Origin: Promethearchaeota archaeon
GTDB lineage: Archaea > Asgardarchaeota > Lokiarchaeia > Sigyniarchaeales > SOKP01
Length of the DNA: 27,019 nucleotides
Assembly: GCA_016839585.1 (NCBI GenBank)
Contig: JAEOTZ010000037.1
Location: 1 to 27,019, forward strand
Direction: 5' to 3'
The notes beneath the pieces are model-generated. The model was not told the origin of the DNA and searched no databases. It saw nothing but the letters and a program-made list of their open reading frames with translations. Made by a program: the position numbers and the translations under genes. Below are positions 4,875 to 22,460 of this stretch, one piece after another. Position 1 is the stretch's first letter. Each line of letters begins with the position of its first letter.

Positions 4875-4989
4875 CCTTATATACGTCTTTTTCCCTTATT
4901 AAATCATTAATAAAATTAAAAGCAGTAATCGTAGATTTTCTATATTTTAAAAACCATAATTTTATATTAACAAATTTGTATTAATTTAG

Positions 4990-5062
4990 TGAAAAAACGC
5001 CAATAGCTAAATAATTTCCATATTGAATTCACTTTTGATATTATTTAACAGGCGTTTTTTCA
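4990..5062. repeat. Long imperfect palindrome 2 with TGAAAAAACGCC arms
   Basis: TGAAAAAACGCC (4990-5001) ... GGCGTTTTTTCA (5051-5062) form a perfect 12-bp inverted repeat; inner pair TAAATAAT/ATTATTTA. Confidence 0.7.
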
Positions 5063-5148
5063 TTTCTTAAAAAGAATTTCACCTTTACTTTCATAATTAT
5101 TAAATTCTTTAGAGTATTATTGAGAAATACAAAATATTAATCCTTAAC

Positions 5149-15456: not shown

Positions 15457-16356
15457 TTATTTTATTAATTTGTTTTTAGGAAATCTTTTTGATAATTTCT
15501 TCTCTCTGGCATCTCGTATTGATTCACTTATCATTGGAAATAAAACTATGGATAAAACAGAAGAGCTGATTGTTATTAATATAAATGTGAATATAAAAAT
15601 GGAATAAATATCATCAAATGTTGTTATAGATATGAGAAACATGACAAGTGATAACAATATCAGAATTAGTACATAAATTAAACAAAAATCTATACCTTTT
15701 TTATAATCATTTCTATTTAATTTTATTAATTCATAATCGGGAATCTCGTTTTTTTCAAAAATATTTCCATTACTAAATTCATTTTCTATTATTTGAATTA
15801 TGCAATTTTGTATTAAATTGTTATAACTAATATTAATTGTTAATTTTCCTATATCGCAATCAATAATTTCATTATTTTTACAGGTCGATAAATATAGTTC
15901 ATTATAAATAGAAGATTTTCTGATATTGATATCAGAACATGATATTAGATCTAAGAAACTAATTTTACATACTTCAATTGTTATATTTTGGCATTTATAC
16001 AAAATTACTGAACTAAGGGTACATTTTCGAATAGTGATATGAGATTTTAGTTTTTTCAATTTAAACGGTTCTGGGAAATGTTCTATAGATTCAATAATAA
16101 TTGGATTATCAATACTTCCTTCTCCTCTAAATTCAGATAAATTATATGTATCTTTCTGTTTAAATACCATAAAAAAAGATATCACGATTGAAAATATCCC
16201 AAACCATAGAGAAATTAAACCTAACCAAATAGGGATTATGATTAAGAATTTATACACATTACTTAATAATAAAAAAATAACAAATAATATCACTAAAAAG
16301 CCCTCAATAATTATTAGTGAGTTTGTTAAGTTAAATTTAGGATATCTTCTTTTCAT
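15457..16356 (-). CDS. Membrane protein with a right-handed beta-helix (NosD-like) domain
   Basis: Two TM at each end; GEGSIDNPIII motif followed by repeated C-x-N-I-x-I-x-x-C units. Confidence 0.72.
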   Translation of the reverse strand: MKRRYPKFNLTNSLIIIEGFLVILFVIFLLLSNVYKFLIIIPIWLGLISLWFGIFSIVISFFMVFKQKDTYNLSEFRGEGSIDNPIIIESIEHFPEPFKLKKLKSHITIRKCTLSSVILYKCQNITIEVCKISFLDLISCSDINIRKSSIYNELYLSTCKNNEIIDCDIGKLTINISYNNLIQNCIIQIIENEFSNGNIFEKNEIPDYELIKLNRNDYKKGIDFCLIYVLILILLSLVMFLISITTFDDIYSIFIFTFILITISSSVLSIVLFPMISESIRDAREKKLSKRFPKNKLIK

Positions 16357-17336: not shown

Positions 17337-17485
17337 AAAATATAATCAAAGAAGAACTTCTTCCAAATAATTAATTTTTTTCATATTAAGGACTAAAAAG
17401 ATTTTTATGAGATTCTATACTTTAATCTCTATCTTATTAAGGATTAAATTTTATATTTAATTTAAAAATAAGATAAAACACCAGT

Positions 17486-17675
17486 GCCAAGGTATGGCCA
17501 AAGCCATTGTGCGGTAAAGGTGGCGTAGCAGATTTTCATTTTCTGAAGATCCGCGAAACCCGGGAAGGTATTAATTGAAAATTATTGCCCCTAACGCACT
17601 AGACTGAAGTGTAGAGTTTCATTCAAACCGTTCTCAGTTATCTAGGTATCGAGGGTTCAAATCCCTCCCTTGGCA
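17486..17675 (+). tRNA. tRNA-Phe: tRNA-Phe(GAA) containing four predicted introns
   Basis: Exons 17486-17490, 17519-17528, 17559-17566, 17595-17609 and 17640-17675 join to GCCAAGG TG GCGT AGCCCGGGA ACGC A CTAGA CTGAAGA TCTAG GTATC GAGGG TTCAAAT CCCTC CCTTGGC A (74 nt). All four stems pair perfectly, and U8, A14, G15-C48, G18G19, U33 and TTC are present. CCA is not encoded. Confidence 0.92.
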
Positions 17676-17684
17676 ATTGATGAA

Positions 17685-18416
17685 TTAAGTCCATCTCTGT
17701 TTTAAATCCTCTATTATTTTTCTCCCGTAAAAGTTCAGTTGTTTTTTCCGTTCTTTAGTTAATCCTGTGTAATCATCACTATAAGTCAACATCTTTTCAA
17801 TTTCTTTAATAAGAGATTCATTACTCACATTATAACCATGTTTGACGCACAAATTCTTTAAGAGATCTCTGTATTCATAAGAATAATTAACCCTTTTATC
17901 AGGGTATAACTCATGTAATTTCTTTTCTATTTTCACTCGTTTCTCAGGATCACTGATACTCTTTAATACTAATCCAAAAGTTTTAGCACGATATTCCCAC
18001 TTTTTAGGTTTTACCTTATACAAAAATTTGCTTACATTGCCTTTAGCTTCTAATCCTGTATTAAAAGTATCTCTTGCTTTGGTAGGAGAGATTTTGACAG
18101 TTTCAATATCATTAGCTCTACAAAGGTTTTTAAAATCTTCTACTAATGGAAACGAGGCGTTATTAAAACTAATATGGAGCGTCTTATTATGTTTATGAAT
18201 ATGTATGGAACCATCAGTATCTACTAATCCCCTTAAACCCTCAATCTGGAACTGTCCATTTTGTTTAATCACCTGAGGTACTTCAACTTGGTTTTTCTTC
18301 TTATCTCCTGGCTTATGACCTTTGTCAATTAAGCTTTCAATAATATTTTTTGGATGAATTTTAAACTTAATAGCATCTGCTTTTTTTGGTTCATATATAC
18401 TAGGTCTCCTTCTCAT
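17685..18416 (-). CDS. LAGLIDADG-family (intein/DOD-type) homing endonuclease-like protein, probably N-terminally truncated
   Basis: VEVPQVI...GLRGLVDTDGSI...ISFNNASFPLVEDFKNL resembles the second motif of two-motif LAGLIDADG enzymes. No first motif and no intein splice residues are visible, and the start overlaps the upstream gene. Confidence 0.78.
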   Translation of the reverse strand: MRRRPSIYEPKKADAIKFKIHPKNIIESLIDKGHKPGDKKKNQVEVPQVIKQNGQFQIEGLRGLVDTDGSIHIHKHNKTLHISFNNASFPLVEDFKNLCRANDIETVKISPTKARDTFNTGLEAKGNVSKFLYKVKPKKWEYRAKTFGLVLKSISDPEKRVKIEKKLHELYPDKRVNYSYEYRDLLKNLCVKHGYNVSNESLIKEIEKMLTYSDDYTGLTKERKKQLNFYGRKIIEDLKQRWT

Positions 18417-19395
18417 TTTTTAAGACTTTGATTTGGTTTAAAGCATTTTCACTTATTTTCTGGTATCTACTATTCTTTAAGTTAATCGTTCCCTCATATC
18501 CCTTATATAAATCAATTTCTTTAATATCCGAATTTTCGATGGATGTATCTTGACAAGCACCAAATTTTAATACATTTATTGAAACGAAATTCATTTCTAT
18601 ATCTGAACAAAATTTTAAATTACATGATTTTGAGATGTTATAGCTTTCTAAAGTTATATGTTTCGTATCATATAACGCTATTTTCTTTAAATCGAGGTTT
18701 TTAAAGATAACGAAATGTCTATTATGATAAAAAGTTAAATCTTTTACTTTTGCTTTTTTGATATTGTGACTATCAATTATGATCGGATCACTTTTAGTTC
18801 CCATTCCTCTACACTCAATCTCCTTTAAAACATTTCCGTGGAATAAACTAAATGTAGAAATAGAAAATGATTCAGTTGGTTCCTTTAATGGTTTTTGAAT
18901 TTCTAAGATCTCGTCAATCCAAGGATGATCAATATTCTCAAGATAATTTCCCCTACTTAAATTATCTGAATCAAAAAATATATCCCAATAACAGTTTTTA
19001 AATGTGTTATTATAGCATTTGTATAGTTTAAATTCCGTATCGAATTTTGAATCTTTTAATAGACAGTTTCGACATACGATGAGATTTATAAAATTAATTT
19101 CAGAGCTGTCAATCGTTATATTAATACAATTATATAAAAATGAAGATCTGAAGATACAGTTTTTCATAGTAATATTTTTACAATACCCTAATACTAGAGA
19201 ATTAAGGCGACAATTTTCAATAATTATAAACCTTTCAGATTCCAATATTTCAAAATTATTAGGGATACTCGATGAAGAATCAATTATGAAAGGATCTTCC
19301 TTAATACCAGTTCCTCTGCATTCCACTTCAAATTCTTCAAATTTTAAAGGTTCTCCGCTATGTTTATACGTGCCTTTTCTTAATTTTATTTTCAT
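18400..19395 (-). CDS. Beta-helix/solenoid repeat protein with an internal domain duplication
   Basis: EVECRGTGIKEDPFIIDS and EIECRGMGTKSDPIIIDS each open a run of C-x-N-I-T-x-x-N-C repeats; related in motif to 15457-16356. Confidence 0.75.
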   Translation of the reverse strand: MKIKLRKGTYKHSGEPLKFEEFEVECRGTGIKEDPFIIDSSSSIPNNFEILESERFIIIENCRLNSLVLGYCKNITMKNCIFRSSFLYNCINITIDSSEINFINLIVCRNCLLKDSKFDTEFKLYKCYNNTFKNCYWDIFFDSDNLSRGNYLENIDHPWIDEILEIQKPLKEPTESFSISTFSLFHGNVLKEIECRGMGTKSDPIIIDSHNIKKAKVKDLTFYHNRHFVIFKNLDLKKIALYDTKHITLESYNISKSCNLKFCSDIEMNFVSINVLKFGACQDTSIENSDIKEIDLYKGYEGTINLKNSRYQKISENALNQIKVLKNEKET

Positions 19396-20897: not shown

Positions 20898-22460
20898 CTA
20901 TTTTTTTCTAAGGTATTTTCTGATTGTAATAACGAGAAACAGAGAAACAAACAAACCTATGCTAAAAAGTGAATATAATGAATACCCGAAAATAGCTTTA
21001 TCATCCCCATATATATGGACTTCTACCATAAGACAGTTTGAACTAAGACTATATTTTTCATTTTGTGCTAAGATAAGGTAATAATAAATCCCATTTGTTA
21101 GATTAGCTATTGAAAAACTTCTTGAGTACTTTACATCCAAAATGTTCACTGTGTTATTAATTTGTGTTATAGAGCTATTGTAAGTATAAATAGTGTAATT
21201 GTCTGCGTTTCCAGGATCTTCCCAAGTTAAAGTAAAATTTCCATCAATATCGGGAGTCCCTGCATCCGTTGTTAGATTAAACGGTGATAATTCGATATTA
21301 TTATATAGTAATGTTATTCTCCCATTTTCTCCTCCCAAAGCCAAATAAATTCCATCATAATTATATGCTGAAGTACTGATATCTTCTCCAAGATTATGAG
21401 ATCCTGCACTTGTTAAACGATCATCGGAAATTCTTTTTCTAATTTTCATATTATCAAAATCATTTAAATAAGCGATGTATCTTCCATTACCACTAACAGC
21501 AGAATTAAACCTGGAAGTACCCCACGTATAACTGTTTGTACTTATTGTAGATCCGTCAAAATTACATATTCGTACTCTTGTCGGTTCATATAAACCCCAT
21601 TGATTTGCAAACACGATTGTTTTCCCGTTCCTTGACATTTCCATTGCATAAATCACACCAAGACCATAGTATAAATAACCAATGGTTCTACTCCATATCG
21701 GTGTTGAATCGGCTCTATTAAACATATACCCATATTCTTTTCCTGCACCACAGATATAATTGCCGTCCATGGTTACTCTTGTATAAAGAATATCAAGACT
21801 TTGGTTAGACCAAAGTAGATCTCCCGTGCGATTTAATACACAGATTTGACCATCTAATCCAGTGCCATATCCTCCCGCTACAATTGTATTAGCATCATAG
21901 GAAATATCGACGCTTACAACTATACCTACGGCCTTATAACTCCACATAGGGCCAGTCAAGTCGAATAAATGAATGTATCCATCAGCAGTCCCTGCTACGA
22001 GATATTTATTATTTACAGAAAAATCTATAGCAGTTATACTATCTCCTATGTCATAATTCCATAATGGATTTGAAGTTGTTGTATTAAATAACAAAACTCT
22101 CCCATTATCACAACCCGCAACACAATACGTACCATTAGGAGAGATTGATACTGATATTACCGGACTTCCCGTATCCCTAGTCCAAATTGGCTCGGAACTT
22201 GTGTTATTAAATAAAATTGCTTTATTATCATAATTTCCAGCAAAAAGATAGAATCCATCATCAGAAAGTGCCAAGGATCTGATTTCATCAGCAGTGTCTT
22301 TTGTCCAAACAATTTCTTGAGTTGATATCTTTGGATAAGAATAAACCTCTATTTCTCCATAATTACTCTTTCTGTCATAAGAAAATGGTGTTTCGAAACA
22401 ACTAGAAAGCACCGATATTACAAAAACTAATAATATAAATGAAATTTTGATTCTTTTCAT
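20898..22460 (-). CDS. Secreted, membrane-anchored WD40/PQQ-like beta-propeller surface protein with a Loki-CTERM-like C-terminus
   Basis: N-terminal signal peptide; repeated blades (PIWT..VISVSISPNG.Y.VAG); FN3-like region (DGNFTLTW...NGIYYY); C-terminal IFGY + TM + RKYLRKK. Confidence 0.88.
   Translation of the reverse strand: MKRIKISFILLVFVISVLSSCFETPFSYDRKSNYGEIEVYSYPKISTQEIVWTKDTADEIRSLALSDDGFYLFAGNYDNKAILFNNTSSEPIWTRDTGSPVISVSISPNGTYCVAGCDNGRVLLFNTTTSNPLWNYDIGDSITAIDFSVNNKYLVAGTADGYIHLFDLTGPMWSYKAVGIVVSVDISYDANTIVAGGYGTGLDGQICVLNRTGDLLWSNQSLDILYTRVTMDGNYICGAGKEYGYMFNRADSTPIWSRTIGYLYYGLGVIYAMEMSRNGKTIVFANQWGLYEPTRVRICNFDGSTISTNSYTWGTSRFNSAVSGNGRYIAYLNDFDNMKIRKRISDDRLTSAGSHNLGEDISTSAYNYDGIYLALGGENGRITLLYNNIELSPFNLTTDAGTPDIDGNFTLTWEDPGNADNYTIYTYNSSITQINNTVNILDVKYSRSFSIANLTNGIYYYLILAQNEKYSLSSNCLMVEVHIYGDDKAIFGYSLYSLFSIGLFVSLFLVITIRKYLRKK

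What the first reader, a model, noticed from the sequence alone, without database searches (positions are those of the whole stretch)
17481..17523. Acceptor-stem intron at 5/6 whose splice motif needs the 5' leader and whose first bases mimic the exon
Seen in sequence: the intron 1 central helix uses leader base T17485, and leader CCA (17481-17483) can pair with exon-2 TGG (17521-17523). The intron begins GGTA, so the unspliced 5' end reads GCCAAGG-TA and can already form a complete decoy acceptor stem with CCTTGGC. Inference: splicing would have to precede RNase P cleavage and compete with acceptor-stem formation. Neighbouring BHBs draw on the same tiny exons, so removal is probably ordered. 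Position 5/6 is not a site I recognise as common.
Basis: partly seen in the sequence, partly recalled or inferred. Interest (0 to 1): 0.7.

Follow-up and report, generated by a model that had tools for sequence, protein, structure and literature searches.

The report
tRNA intron with two entry sites
The only phenylalanine tRNA gene found in this Asgard (Loki-type) archaeon has a small intron inside the stem that joins the tRNA's two ends; because the tRNA's first bases occur twice, it can probably be cut out in two ways, one that needs the upstream leader and one that does not, a twist on a rare but known kind of archaeal intron.

Summary
17486-17675 is a four-intron tRNA-Phe(GAA) (5/6, 15/16, 22/23, 37/38), the only one found in a 99%-complete Lokiarchaeal genome. 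For the 28-nt insert only register 5/6 gives a 4-bp central helix; it uses leader base T17485, and the unspliced 5' end forms a perfect 7-bp decoy acceptor stem. Folding models put that helix at 99% in nascent RNA, 0.05% or less in full-length RNA. It gives an alternative 17-nt intron with the same 3' site and the same mature tRNA, needs no base upstream of 17486, and coexists with the decoy, which then helps. A very close relative and six other orthologues carry the doubled start without an intron. So an obligate splice-before-RNase P order is not established; forced intron order and leader covariation are not supported. The insert is a singleton among 92 orthologues; no RNA data. Acceptor-stem introns (3/4, Thermoproteales) and multi-intron Asgard tRNAs are published; this scan reported leader-built motifs and stand-in acceptor strands before on other DNA. 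New variant of a known kind; interest 0.45.

The parts
17395..17409 (+). Probable BRE/TATA promoter of the tRNA gene
   Evidence: Conserved motif 76-80 nt upstream of tRNA-Phe position 1 in most orthologues where it was found; function inferred
17431..17474 (+). Predicted hairpin at the start of an about 55-nt 5' leader (start site inferred at A17431)
   Evidence: Hairpin predicted at the same distance from the promoter motif in two unrelated leader sequence types; no RNA data
17481..17485 (+). Leader bases: CCA (optional outer helix of site A), G17484 (mismatch), T17485 (first pair of the site-A central helix)
17486..17493 (+). First copy of the tRNA start (positions 1-8, 8/8 identical). Exon 1 (17486-90) for site A; complete stand-in acceptor strand (17486-92) for site B
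   Evidence: lies at the ancestral start distance of 76 nt
17491..17518 (+). Intron 1, reading A: 28 nt at 5/6, HBh' motif with 4/4 central pairs, leader-dependent
17494..17507 (+). Hairpin ATGGC/GCCAT: intron stem in reading A; hides the second GCCAA and opposes reading B
17497..17501 (+). Second GCCAA: exon 1 in reading B
   Evidence: 87 nt from the promoter motif, like the 86-89 nt of relatives with a doubled start
17502..17518 (+). Intron 1, reading B: 17 nt at 5/6, central helix 3/4 (G17496.A17516 mismatch), intron helix GC/GC, outer helix TAT/GTG
   Evidence: sequence
17519..17528 (+). Exon 2 (positions 6-15); shared 3' splice site 17518^17519
17529..17558 (+). Intron 2 at 15/16 (30 nt, central helix 3/4 with G.A)
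   Evidence: shared with many orthologues
17559..17566 (+). Exon 3 (D loop)
17567..17594 (+). Intron 3 at 22/23 (28 nt, central helix 3/4)
17595..17609 (+). Exon 4, anticodon GAA at 17606-17608
17610..17639 (+). Intron 4 at canonical 37/38 (30 nt, full BHB)
17640..17675 (+). Exon 5; 3' acceptor strand 17668-17674, discriminator A17675, no encoded CCA

Best explanation
The insert is a real intron removed by the tRNA splicing endonuclease EndA, and the gene offers two 5' splice sites for one 3' splice site, both giving the same mature tRNA-Phe. Early, while the RNA is being made, the first GCCAA plus leader U(-1) folds the better motif (site A, 28 nt out). Once the 3' acceptor strand is transcribed it captures 17486-92 and closes site A; that capture keeps the 3' strand occupied and leaves the second GCCAA free to build a relaxed motif (site B, 17 nt out), after which the acceptor stem shifts to the second copy and RNase P trims 11 more bases at 17496/17497. 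Shown: sequence, registers, product identity, presence of enzymes, orthologue pattern. Inferred: actual cutting at either site, the time window, the second RNase P cut.
For: Spliced product matches intron-free orthologues (differs from G031 only by two compensatory T-stem pairs). Only tRNA-Phe found in a 99% complete genome. Genome encodes two EndA subunits, one with the crenarchaeal-type specific loop and His, one without His, the type that cuts relaxed motifs (PMC5829648), and an RNase P RNA. Folding cost of the motif in full-length RNA: A 10-15, B 7.7, introns 2-4 3.5-5.4 kcal/mol; in nascent RNA with leader A 5-6, B 6-10. Site B begins at 17493, exactly where the decoy stem ends. Its G.A end pair is the usual state of the 15/16 intron in this family (18 of 24). 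A very close relative (run X1; 4 listed differences in 281 upstream nt) has the first 10 tRNA bases doubled 13 nt apart and no intron, and six more orthologues carry a copy 5-10 nt upstream without an intron, so the product of site B has the layout of natural genes. In Methanopyrus, end trimming precedes intron removal (PMC3695527), which would trap an A-only precursor.
Against: No RNA data. No orthologue with the insert in 92 loci, in the GTDB class or in JGI metagenomes, so no covariation for either site. The hairpin 17494-17507 is 99.7% formed and hides the second GCCAA; the site-B central helix has probability 3e-5 in the model, and its cost exceeds that of the other three introns by 2-4 kcal/mol. 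After site-B splicing the secondary-structure model still prefers the upstream copy (98-99%), so the shift needs tertiary folding and irreversible trimming. The X1 sequence is rebuilt from a difference table of one contig at depth 7, with 3 of 14 substitutions unlisted.
Confidence: 0.42

Rival explanations
1. Site A only: the 28-nt intron is cut using leader U(-1), before the acceptor stem closes and before RNase P acts; the second GCCAA is a harmless relic of an earlier duplication, hidden in the intron hairpin.
For: 4/4 central pairs, intron helix and 5-bp hairpin all fit this fold; central helix 99% in nascent RNA with the inferred leader; first copy lies at the ancestral start; intron 1A has the same length (28 nt) and first five bases as intron 3 and the same TGC before the central helix; precedent at 3/4 in Thermoproteales (PMC4090602).
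Against: In full-length RNA the motif costs 10-15 kcal/mol, 15 after RNase P, two to four times the other introns, so any precursor not cut within about 150 nt of transcription would be trapped; the mimic base makes this worse by 5 kcal/mol; leader shows no adaptation.
Confidence: 0.3
2. Site B only: the tRNA starts at 17497, the intron is 17 nt, and 17486-92 is a leader-encoded stand-in acceptor strand as this scan has noted for other archaeal tRNAs; site A is a by-product of the duplication.
For: Doubled start without intron in X1 and six orthologues; distance of the second copy from the promoter motif matches those genes (86-89); boundary repeat is an ordinary 2 nt instead of 5; compatible with trimming before splicing; cheaper than A by 3-7 kcal/mol in full-length RNA.
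Against: Does not explain the 5-bp hairpin that blocks it, the GTA/TGC helix or the T17485-A17516 pair, which all fit site A; only 2 pairs in its intron helix; A17516 mismatches G17496.
Confidence: 0.2
3. The insert is not spliced: either the decoy stem is used and a 28-nt arm at 8/9 is tolerated, or the gene is a recent defective allele and a working tRNA-Phe is missing from the assembly.
For: Decoy stem plus hairpin is the predicted ground state; the insert is a singleton; tRNA genes are often unassembled in such bins.
Against: Canonical motif arises in 0.6% of shuffles; exons show no decay; this is the orthologous locus with the conserved promoter; no second tRNA-Phe found; from general knowledge, an insertion between positions 8 and 9 would disturb the tRNA core.
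Confidence: 0.08

Closest known systems
Acceptor-stem (3/4) BHB introns of Thermoproteales tRNAs (Sugahara et al. 2008, as cited in PMC4090602)
   Same: Intron inside the 5' acceptor strand; by geometry the central helix must borrow leader bases and competes with the acceptor stem.
   Different: Position 5/6, one leader base only; Asgard host; doubled tRNA start giving a second possible 5' splice site. I could not read the primary paper, so I do not know whether it lists 5/6.
Multi-intron tRNA genes of Asgard archaea (PMC11291895; bioRxiv 10.64898/2026.10.13.758758)
   Same: [quoted passage not shown]
   Different: The preprint's main text has no mention of leaders or RNase P and no case of alternative sites; its supplement was not available.
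Ordered removal of several BHB introns (Cyanidioschyzon merolae, Soma 2013, in PMC3978253; Methanopyrus tRNA-Glu, PMC3695527)
   Same: Several motifs in one precursor; a preferred order by motif stability is plausible here too.
   Different: There the order follows stability, not exclusion; in Methanopyrus ends are trimmed first, the reverse of what site A needs.
Leader-encoded stand-in acceptor strands
   Same: A copy of the tRNA's first strand upstream of an intron whose motif borrows acceptor bases.
   Different: Here the upstream copy can itself be the exon; no conservation can be shown; similar copies occur in intron-free orthologues.

Membership tests
Archaeal BHB (EndA) tRNA intron | 4-bp central helix between two 3-nt bulges on opposite strands | tested here: met
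   Site A 4/4, unique among six equivalent registers; site B 3/4
Archaeal BHB (EndA) tRNA intron | At least one flanking helix (h or h') | tested here: met
   A: intron helix GTA/TGC; outer helix only after a G.G mismatch. B: GC/GC and TAT/GTG
Archaeal BHB (EndA) tRNA intron | Removal restores a normal tRNA matching intron-free relatives | tested here: met
Archaeal BHB (EndA) tRNA intron | Host encodes an EndA able to cut relaxed, non-canonical motifs | tested here: met
   Two subunits; catalytic one aligns with Aeropyrum EndA across the specific loop including its Lys-Pro; activity inferred from sequence
Archaeal BHB (EndA) tRNA intron | Actual excision and ligation | not testable with these tools
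   No RNA run holds the locus
Leader-dependent acceptor-stem intron (3/4 type) | Junction inside the acceptor stem | tested here: met
   5/6 in both readings
Leader-dependent acceptor-stem intron (3/4 type) | A 5' leader exists and supplies part of the central helix | tested here: met
   T17485 pairs in site A; conserved promoter motif implies about 55 nt of leader (start site inferred)
Leader-dependent acceptor-stem intron (3/4 type) | Splicing is impossible once RNase P has removed the leader | tested here: inconclusive
   True for site A in the model (15 kcal/mol), not for site B (7.7, unchanged)
Leader-dependent acceptor-stem intron (3/4 type) | Leader and intron covary across orthologues | tested here: inconclusive
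   No second carrier found; leader bases match the intron-free background
Stand-in acceptor strand (scan-noted, unpublished) | Upstream copy pairs with the 3' acceptor strand without overlapping the splice motif | tested here: met
   17486-92 pairs 7/7 and site B starts at 17493
Stand-in acceptor strand (scan-noted, unpublished) | Copy occurs with the intron and not in intron-free genes | tested here: not met
   Copies in six intron-free orthologues and X1, though the six pair only 5-6 of 7

The most novel reading that the evidence does not exclude
Duplications of the first 5-13 bases recur at this tRNA-Phe gene and pre-adapt it to take an acceptor-stem intron; the result here is a precursor with two working 5' splice sites for one 3' site, chosen by folding time (leader-dependent site during transcription, decoy-assisted site afterwards, followed by a second RNase P cut), both ending in one tRNA. 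I found no paper describing this.
Probability: 0.35. Interest if true: 0.68.

Novelty: new variant of a known kind. Interest (0 to 1): 0.45.

Why it matters
It is a small, fully specified test case for two open points: how an intron in the acceptor stem escapes the usual archaeal order (ends trimmed first, introns later), and where the stand-in acceptor strands seen elsewhere in this scan come from. The near relative with a doubled start but no intron suggests the spare strand can come first and make such an intron survivable. A 190-nt transcript, three point mutants and recombinant EndA would settle it. Practical point: ARAGORN misses the gene and Rfam starts it at the wrong base. Its weight is limited by being a single genome without RNA data.

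Tried and rejected
RNA evidence: no RNA holder listed; only contigs of one unclassified run could be laid. Other carriers of the insert: class-wide pattern search of 161 genomes, JGI metagenomes (12 hits, all chance), GTDB contigs (only G071, G121, G077 doubled starts), viral contigs (35 hits, none tRNA-like), contigs of neighbouring proteins (52-64; P0002's contig has no tRNA there; L113, L114, L116 lack the 5' end; L115 has no insert). A phylum-wide search for doubled GCCA starts was mostly chance, and none of the 50 loci inspected was a tRNA; 17 family tRNA-Cys genes with upstream sequence had neither intron nor copy (82, 83), so I could not confirm the stand-in rule independently. Junction 9/10 rejected (G9 in orthologues). 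Registers 3/4, 4/5, 6/7, 7/8, 8/9 rejected (at most 2 central pairs). Forced order among introns rejected in the model. A donor for the insert elsewhere in the genome: none by short BLAST. HARP (protein-only RNase P) not found. A pseudoknot form in which the inner GCCAA holds the 3' strand while site A folds could not be scored. The leader copies of relatives were read by eye as possible short BHB introns and did not fit. Sigma-70 scan uninformative; alignment 103 used wrong coordinates and is ignored. Marck and Grosjean 2003, Sugahara 2007 and Tocchini-Valentini 2011 were not held; Sugahara 2008 is cited only through PMC4090602.

Full report
What is there. ARAGORN finds no tRNA in the window; Rfam finds one at 17514-17675 with a wrong start. 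Comparison with relatives resolves it as tRNA-Phe(GAA), 17486-17675, in five exons with introns at 5/6 (17491-17518), 15/16 (17529-17558), 22/23 (17567-17594) and 37/38 (17610-17639). The spliced 74-mer differs from the intron-free gene of G031 only by two compensatory T-stem pairs. It is the only tRNA-Phe found in a genome of 99% completeness, and among about 35 tRNA genes recovered the only one with an insert in the acceptor stem. The host is a Lokiarchaeon: a genome of the same family is titled Promethearchaeota (L320 = G121), as is a 73% identical homologue of the neighbouring gene. A Logan assembly gives the same sequence (possibly the source sample).

Checking the observation. AAGGT occurs at both ends of the insert, so six registers give the same product. 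Only 5/6 gives four central pairs, the first being leader T17485 with A17516; both bulges read AA^G; the intron helix is GTA/TGC, continued by the hairpin ATGGC/GCCAT. CCA 17481-83 pairs with TGG 17521-23 only beyond a G.G mismatch. The unspliced start 17486-92 pairs 7/7 with 17668-74. Shuffled inserts give a canonical motif in 0.6% of cases. All observed statements are correct.

The competition is real. With the leader, the site-A central helix has probability 0.86-0.996 in transcripts ending at 17530, 0.56 at 17660 and 0.00001-0.0005 once the 3' acceptor strand is present; without the leader it is 0.005 even in the short RNA. Changing G17491 alone restores it to 0.06-0.7 in full-length RNA, so the mimicry costs about 5 kcal/mol. 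The full motif costs 10-15 kcal/mol in full-length RNA against 3.5-5.4 for introns 2-4. These are secondary-structure energies without protein or tertiary terms. A leader very probably exists: a conserved BRE/TATA-like motif lies 76 nt upstream of 17486 (76-80 in most orthologues), and 22 nt behind it an A begins a predicted hairpin in two unrelated leader types, implying about 55 nt of leader from 17431 (inferred).

The insert contains a second GCCAA at 17497-17501 (2% of shuffles). Taking it as exon 1 gives a 17-nt intron (17502-17518), also at 5/6, with the same 3' site and the same mature tRNA. Its motif has three central pairs plus G17496.A17516, an intron helix GC/GC and an outer helix TAT/GTG starting at 17493, the first base after the decoy stem. 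The same G.A at the same place is the usual state of the family's 15/16 intron (18 of 24). Site B costs 7.7 kcal/mol in full-length RNA with or without the leader: less than A, more than the other introns, because the hairpin 17494-17507 must open. I came to this reading after seeing earlier scan notes on stand-in acceptor strands and then tested it here.

Relatives. None of 92 orthologous loci carries the insert, including the nearest genomes on an rpoB tree, G032 and G074, so it is a recent gain or a rare allele and no covariation test is possible. The leader is not adapted to site A: T at -1 is the commonest base without the intron (43 of 90), G at -2 the rarest (13 of 90). Six intron-free orthologues (G010, G026, G034, G071, G077, G121) have a 5-6 base copy of the tRNA start 5-10 nt upstream; five pass a 5-of-6 identity cut against 1.6 expected from shuffled leaders, and where the promoter motif could be anchored (G010, G034, G121) the leader is 8-12 nt longer (86-88), like the 87 nt to the second copy here. 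They fall at three to five separate places on the tree. The closest sequence found, a contig of run X1 with only 4 listed differences in the 281 nt upstream, rebuilds from the difference table as the first ten tRNA bases, three bases, then the intact tRNA start, with no intron (only one reading of the gap coordinates is self-consistent; one contig, depth 7). Its A7 allele exists in the family. The simplest history is a duplication of the start followed by a 17-nt insertion in the second copy; the order is inferred, not shown.

Enzymes. The genome encodes two EndA subunits: one aligns with Aeropyrum EndA across the specific loop and keeps the catalytic His, the other lacks that His. This is the two-subunit type with the L1 loop that PMC5829648 reports for Asgard archaea and links to cutting relaxed motifs. 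An archaeal RNase P RNA is present; HARP was not found.

Order among introns. The cores of neighbouring motifs do not share bases; only optional outer pairs do (G9, G10, C17). Costs are nearly additive: A 8.7 plus intron 2 5.4 against 13.8 together; introns 2 and 3 9.2 against 8.8. A preferred order by stability, as in Cyanidioschyzon (PMC3978253), is plausible, but exclusion is not supported.

Mechanism. Most likely (0.42) both sites work: A in the nascent RNA, B after the first copy has captured the 3' strand, followed by a shift of the acceptor stem and a second RNase P cut. A only (0.30) fits the pairing pattern best, and intron 1A resembles intron 3 in length and ends, but leaves a deep trap, the more so as Methanopyrus trims ends before splicing (PMC3695527). 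B only (0.20) fits the relatives best but leaves the hairpin and the extra A pairs unexplained. No splicing (0.08) is unlikely for a sole, undecayed gene. That the insert is removed by EndA in some way is about 0.9.

Relation to what is known. Acceptor-stem introns are published at 3/4 in Thermoproteales (PMC4090602). Asgard tRNA genes with up to five intervening sequences, recent gains and a few acceptor-stem cases are published (PMC11291895; bioRxiv 2026.10.13.758758). I found no paper on a doubled start giving two splice sites or on a stand-in strand, but three key older papers were not held. This scan has noted leader-built motifs and stand-in strands in many other genomes (65 notes match the words); those are leads, not support, and the intron-free copies found here weaken a strict link between copy and intron. 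Verdict: real feature, new variant of a known kind, interest 0.45.

Noticed in passing
window 17395-17474; L003, L005, L007, L017 and others: Conserved promoter motif followed by a predicted 44-nt leader hairpin in front of tRNA-Phe across the family, in two unrelated sequence types; an unusually long, structured tRNA leader if the start site is right.
   Followed up: partly
window 17685-18416 (-): Free-standing LAGLIDADG-like gene ending 9 nt behind the tRNA, convergent; 243 aa against 280-420 aa for most close homologues, so probably shortened. Homologues sit at the same place in L043, L095 (frameshifted), L002 (fragment) and L113-L116.
   Followed up: partly
L028, L035, L006, L037, L047, L091 and run X1: Recurrent short duplications of the tRNA-Phe start in intron-free genes, at several separate places on the rpoB tree; possibly scars of an element that inserts at the tRNA 5' end.
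   Followed up: partly
tRNA-Phe loci versus rpoB tree: Intron sets and promoter types do not follow the species tree: G024 shares introns 2-4 with this gene while the nearest genomes G032 and G074 share none. Suggests exchange of the locus, repeated gain and loss, or binning errors.
   Followed up: partly
window 17491-17518 and 17567-17594: Introns 1A and 3 are both 28 nt, follow AA, begin with the same five bases and have TGC before the central helix; possible copying within the gene, or coincidence.
   Followed up: partly
window 17514-17520: A third near-copy of the acceptor strand (6 of 7 pairs) spans the 3' splice site; Rfam takes it as the tRNA start.
   Followed up: partly
G004 (L017, L039, L062): Three different tRNA-Phe loci in one bin with 9% contamination; probably mixed strains.
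   Followed up: no
G000 C86 near 57300-57410 (+): A T-arm and 3' acceptor strand without a recognisable 5' half, close to the tRNA-Ile(TAT) gene on the other strand; a tRNA relic or integration scar.
   Followed up: no
window 4981-5070: Long intergenic inverted repeat (chance Rfam MIR6024 hit on both strands, far below the gathering score).
   Followed up: no
window 15457-16356 (-) and 18400-19395 (-): Two genes without Pfam family share a weak stretch (about 36% over 60-80 aa).
   Followed up: no
window 20898-22460 (-): 520-aa WD40 beta-propeller protein.
   Followed up: no
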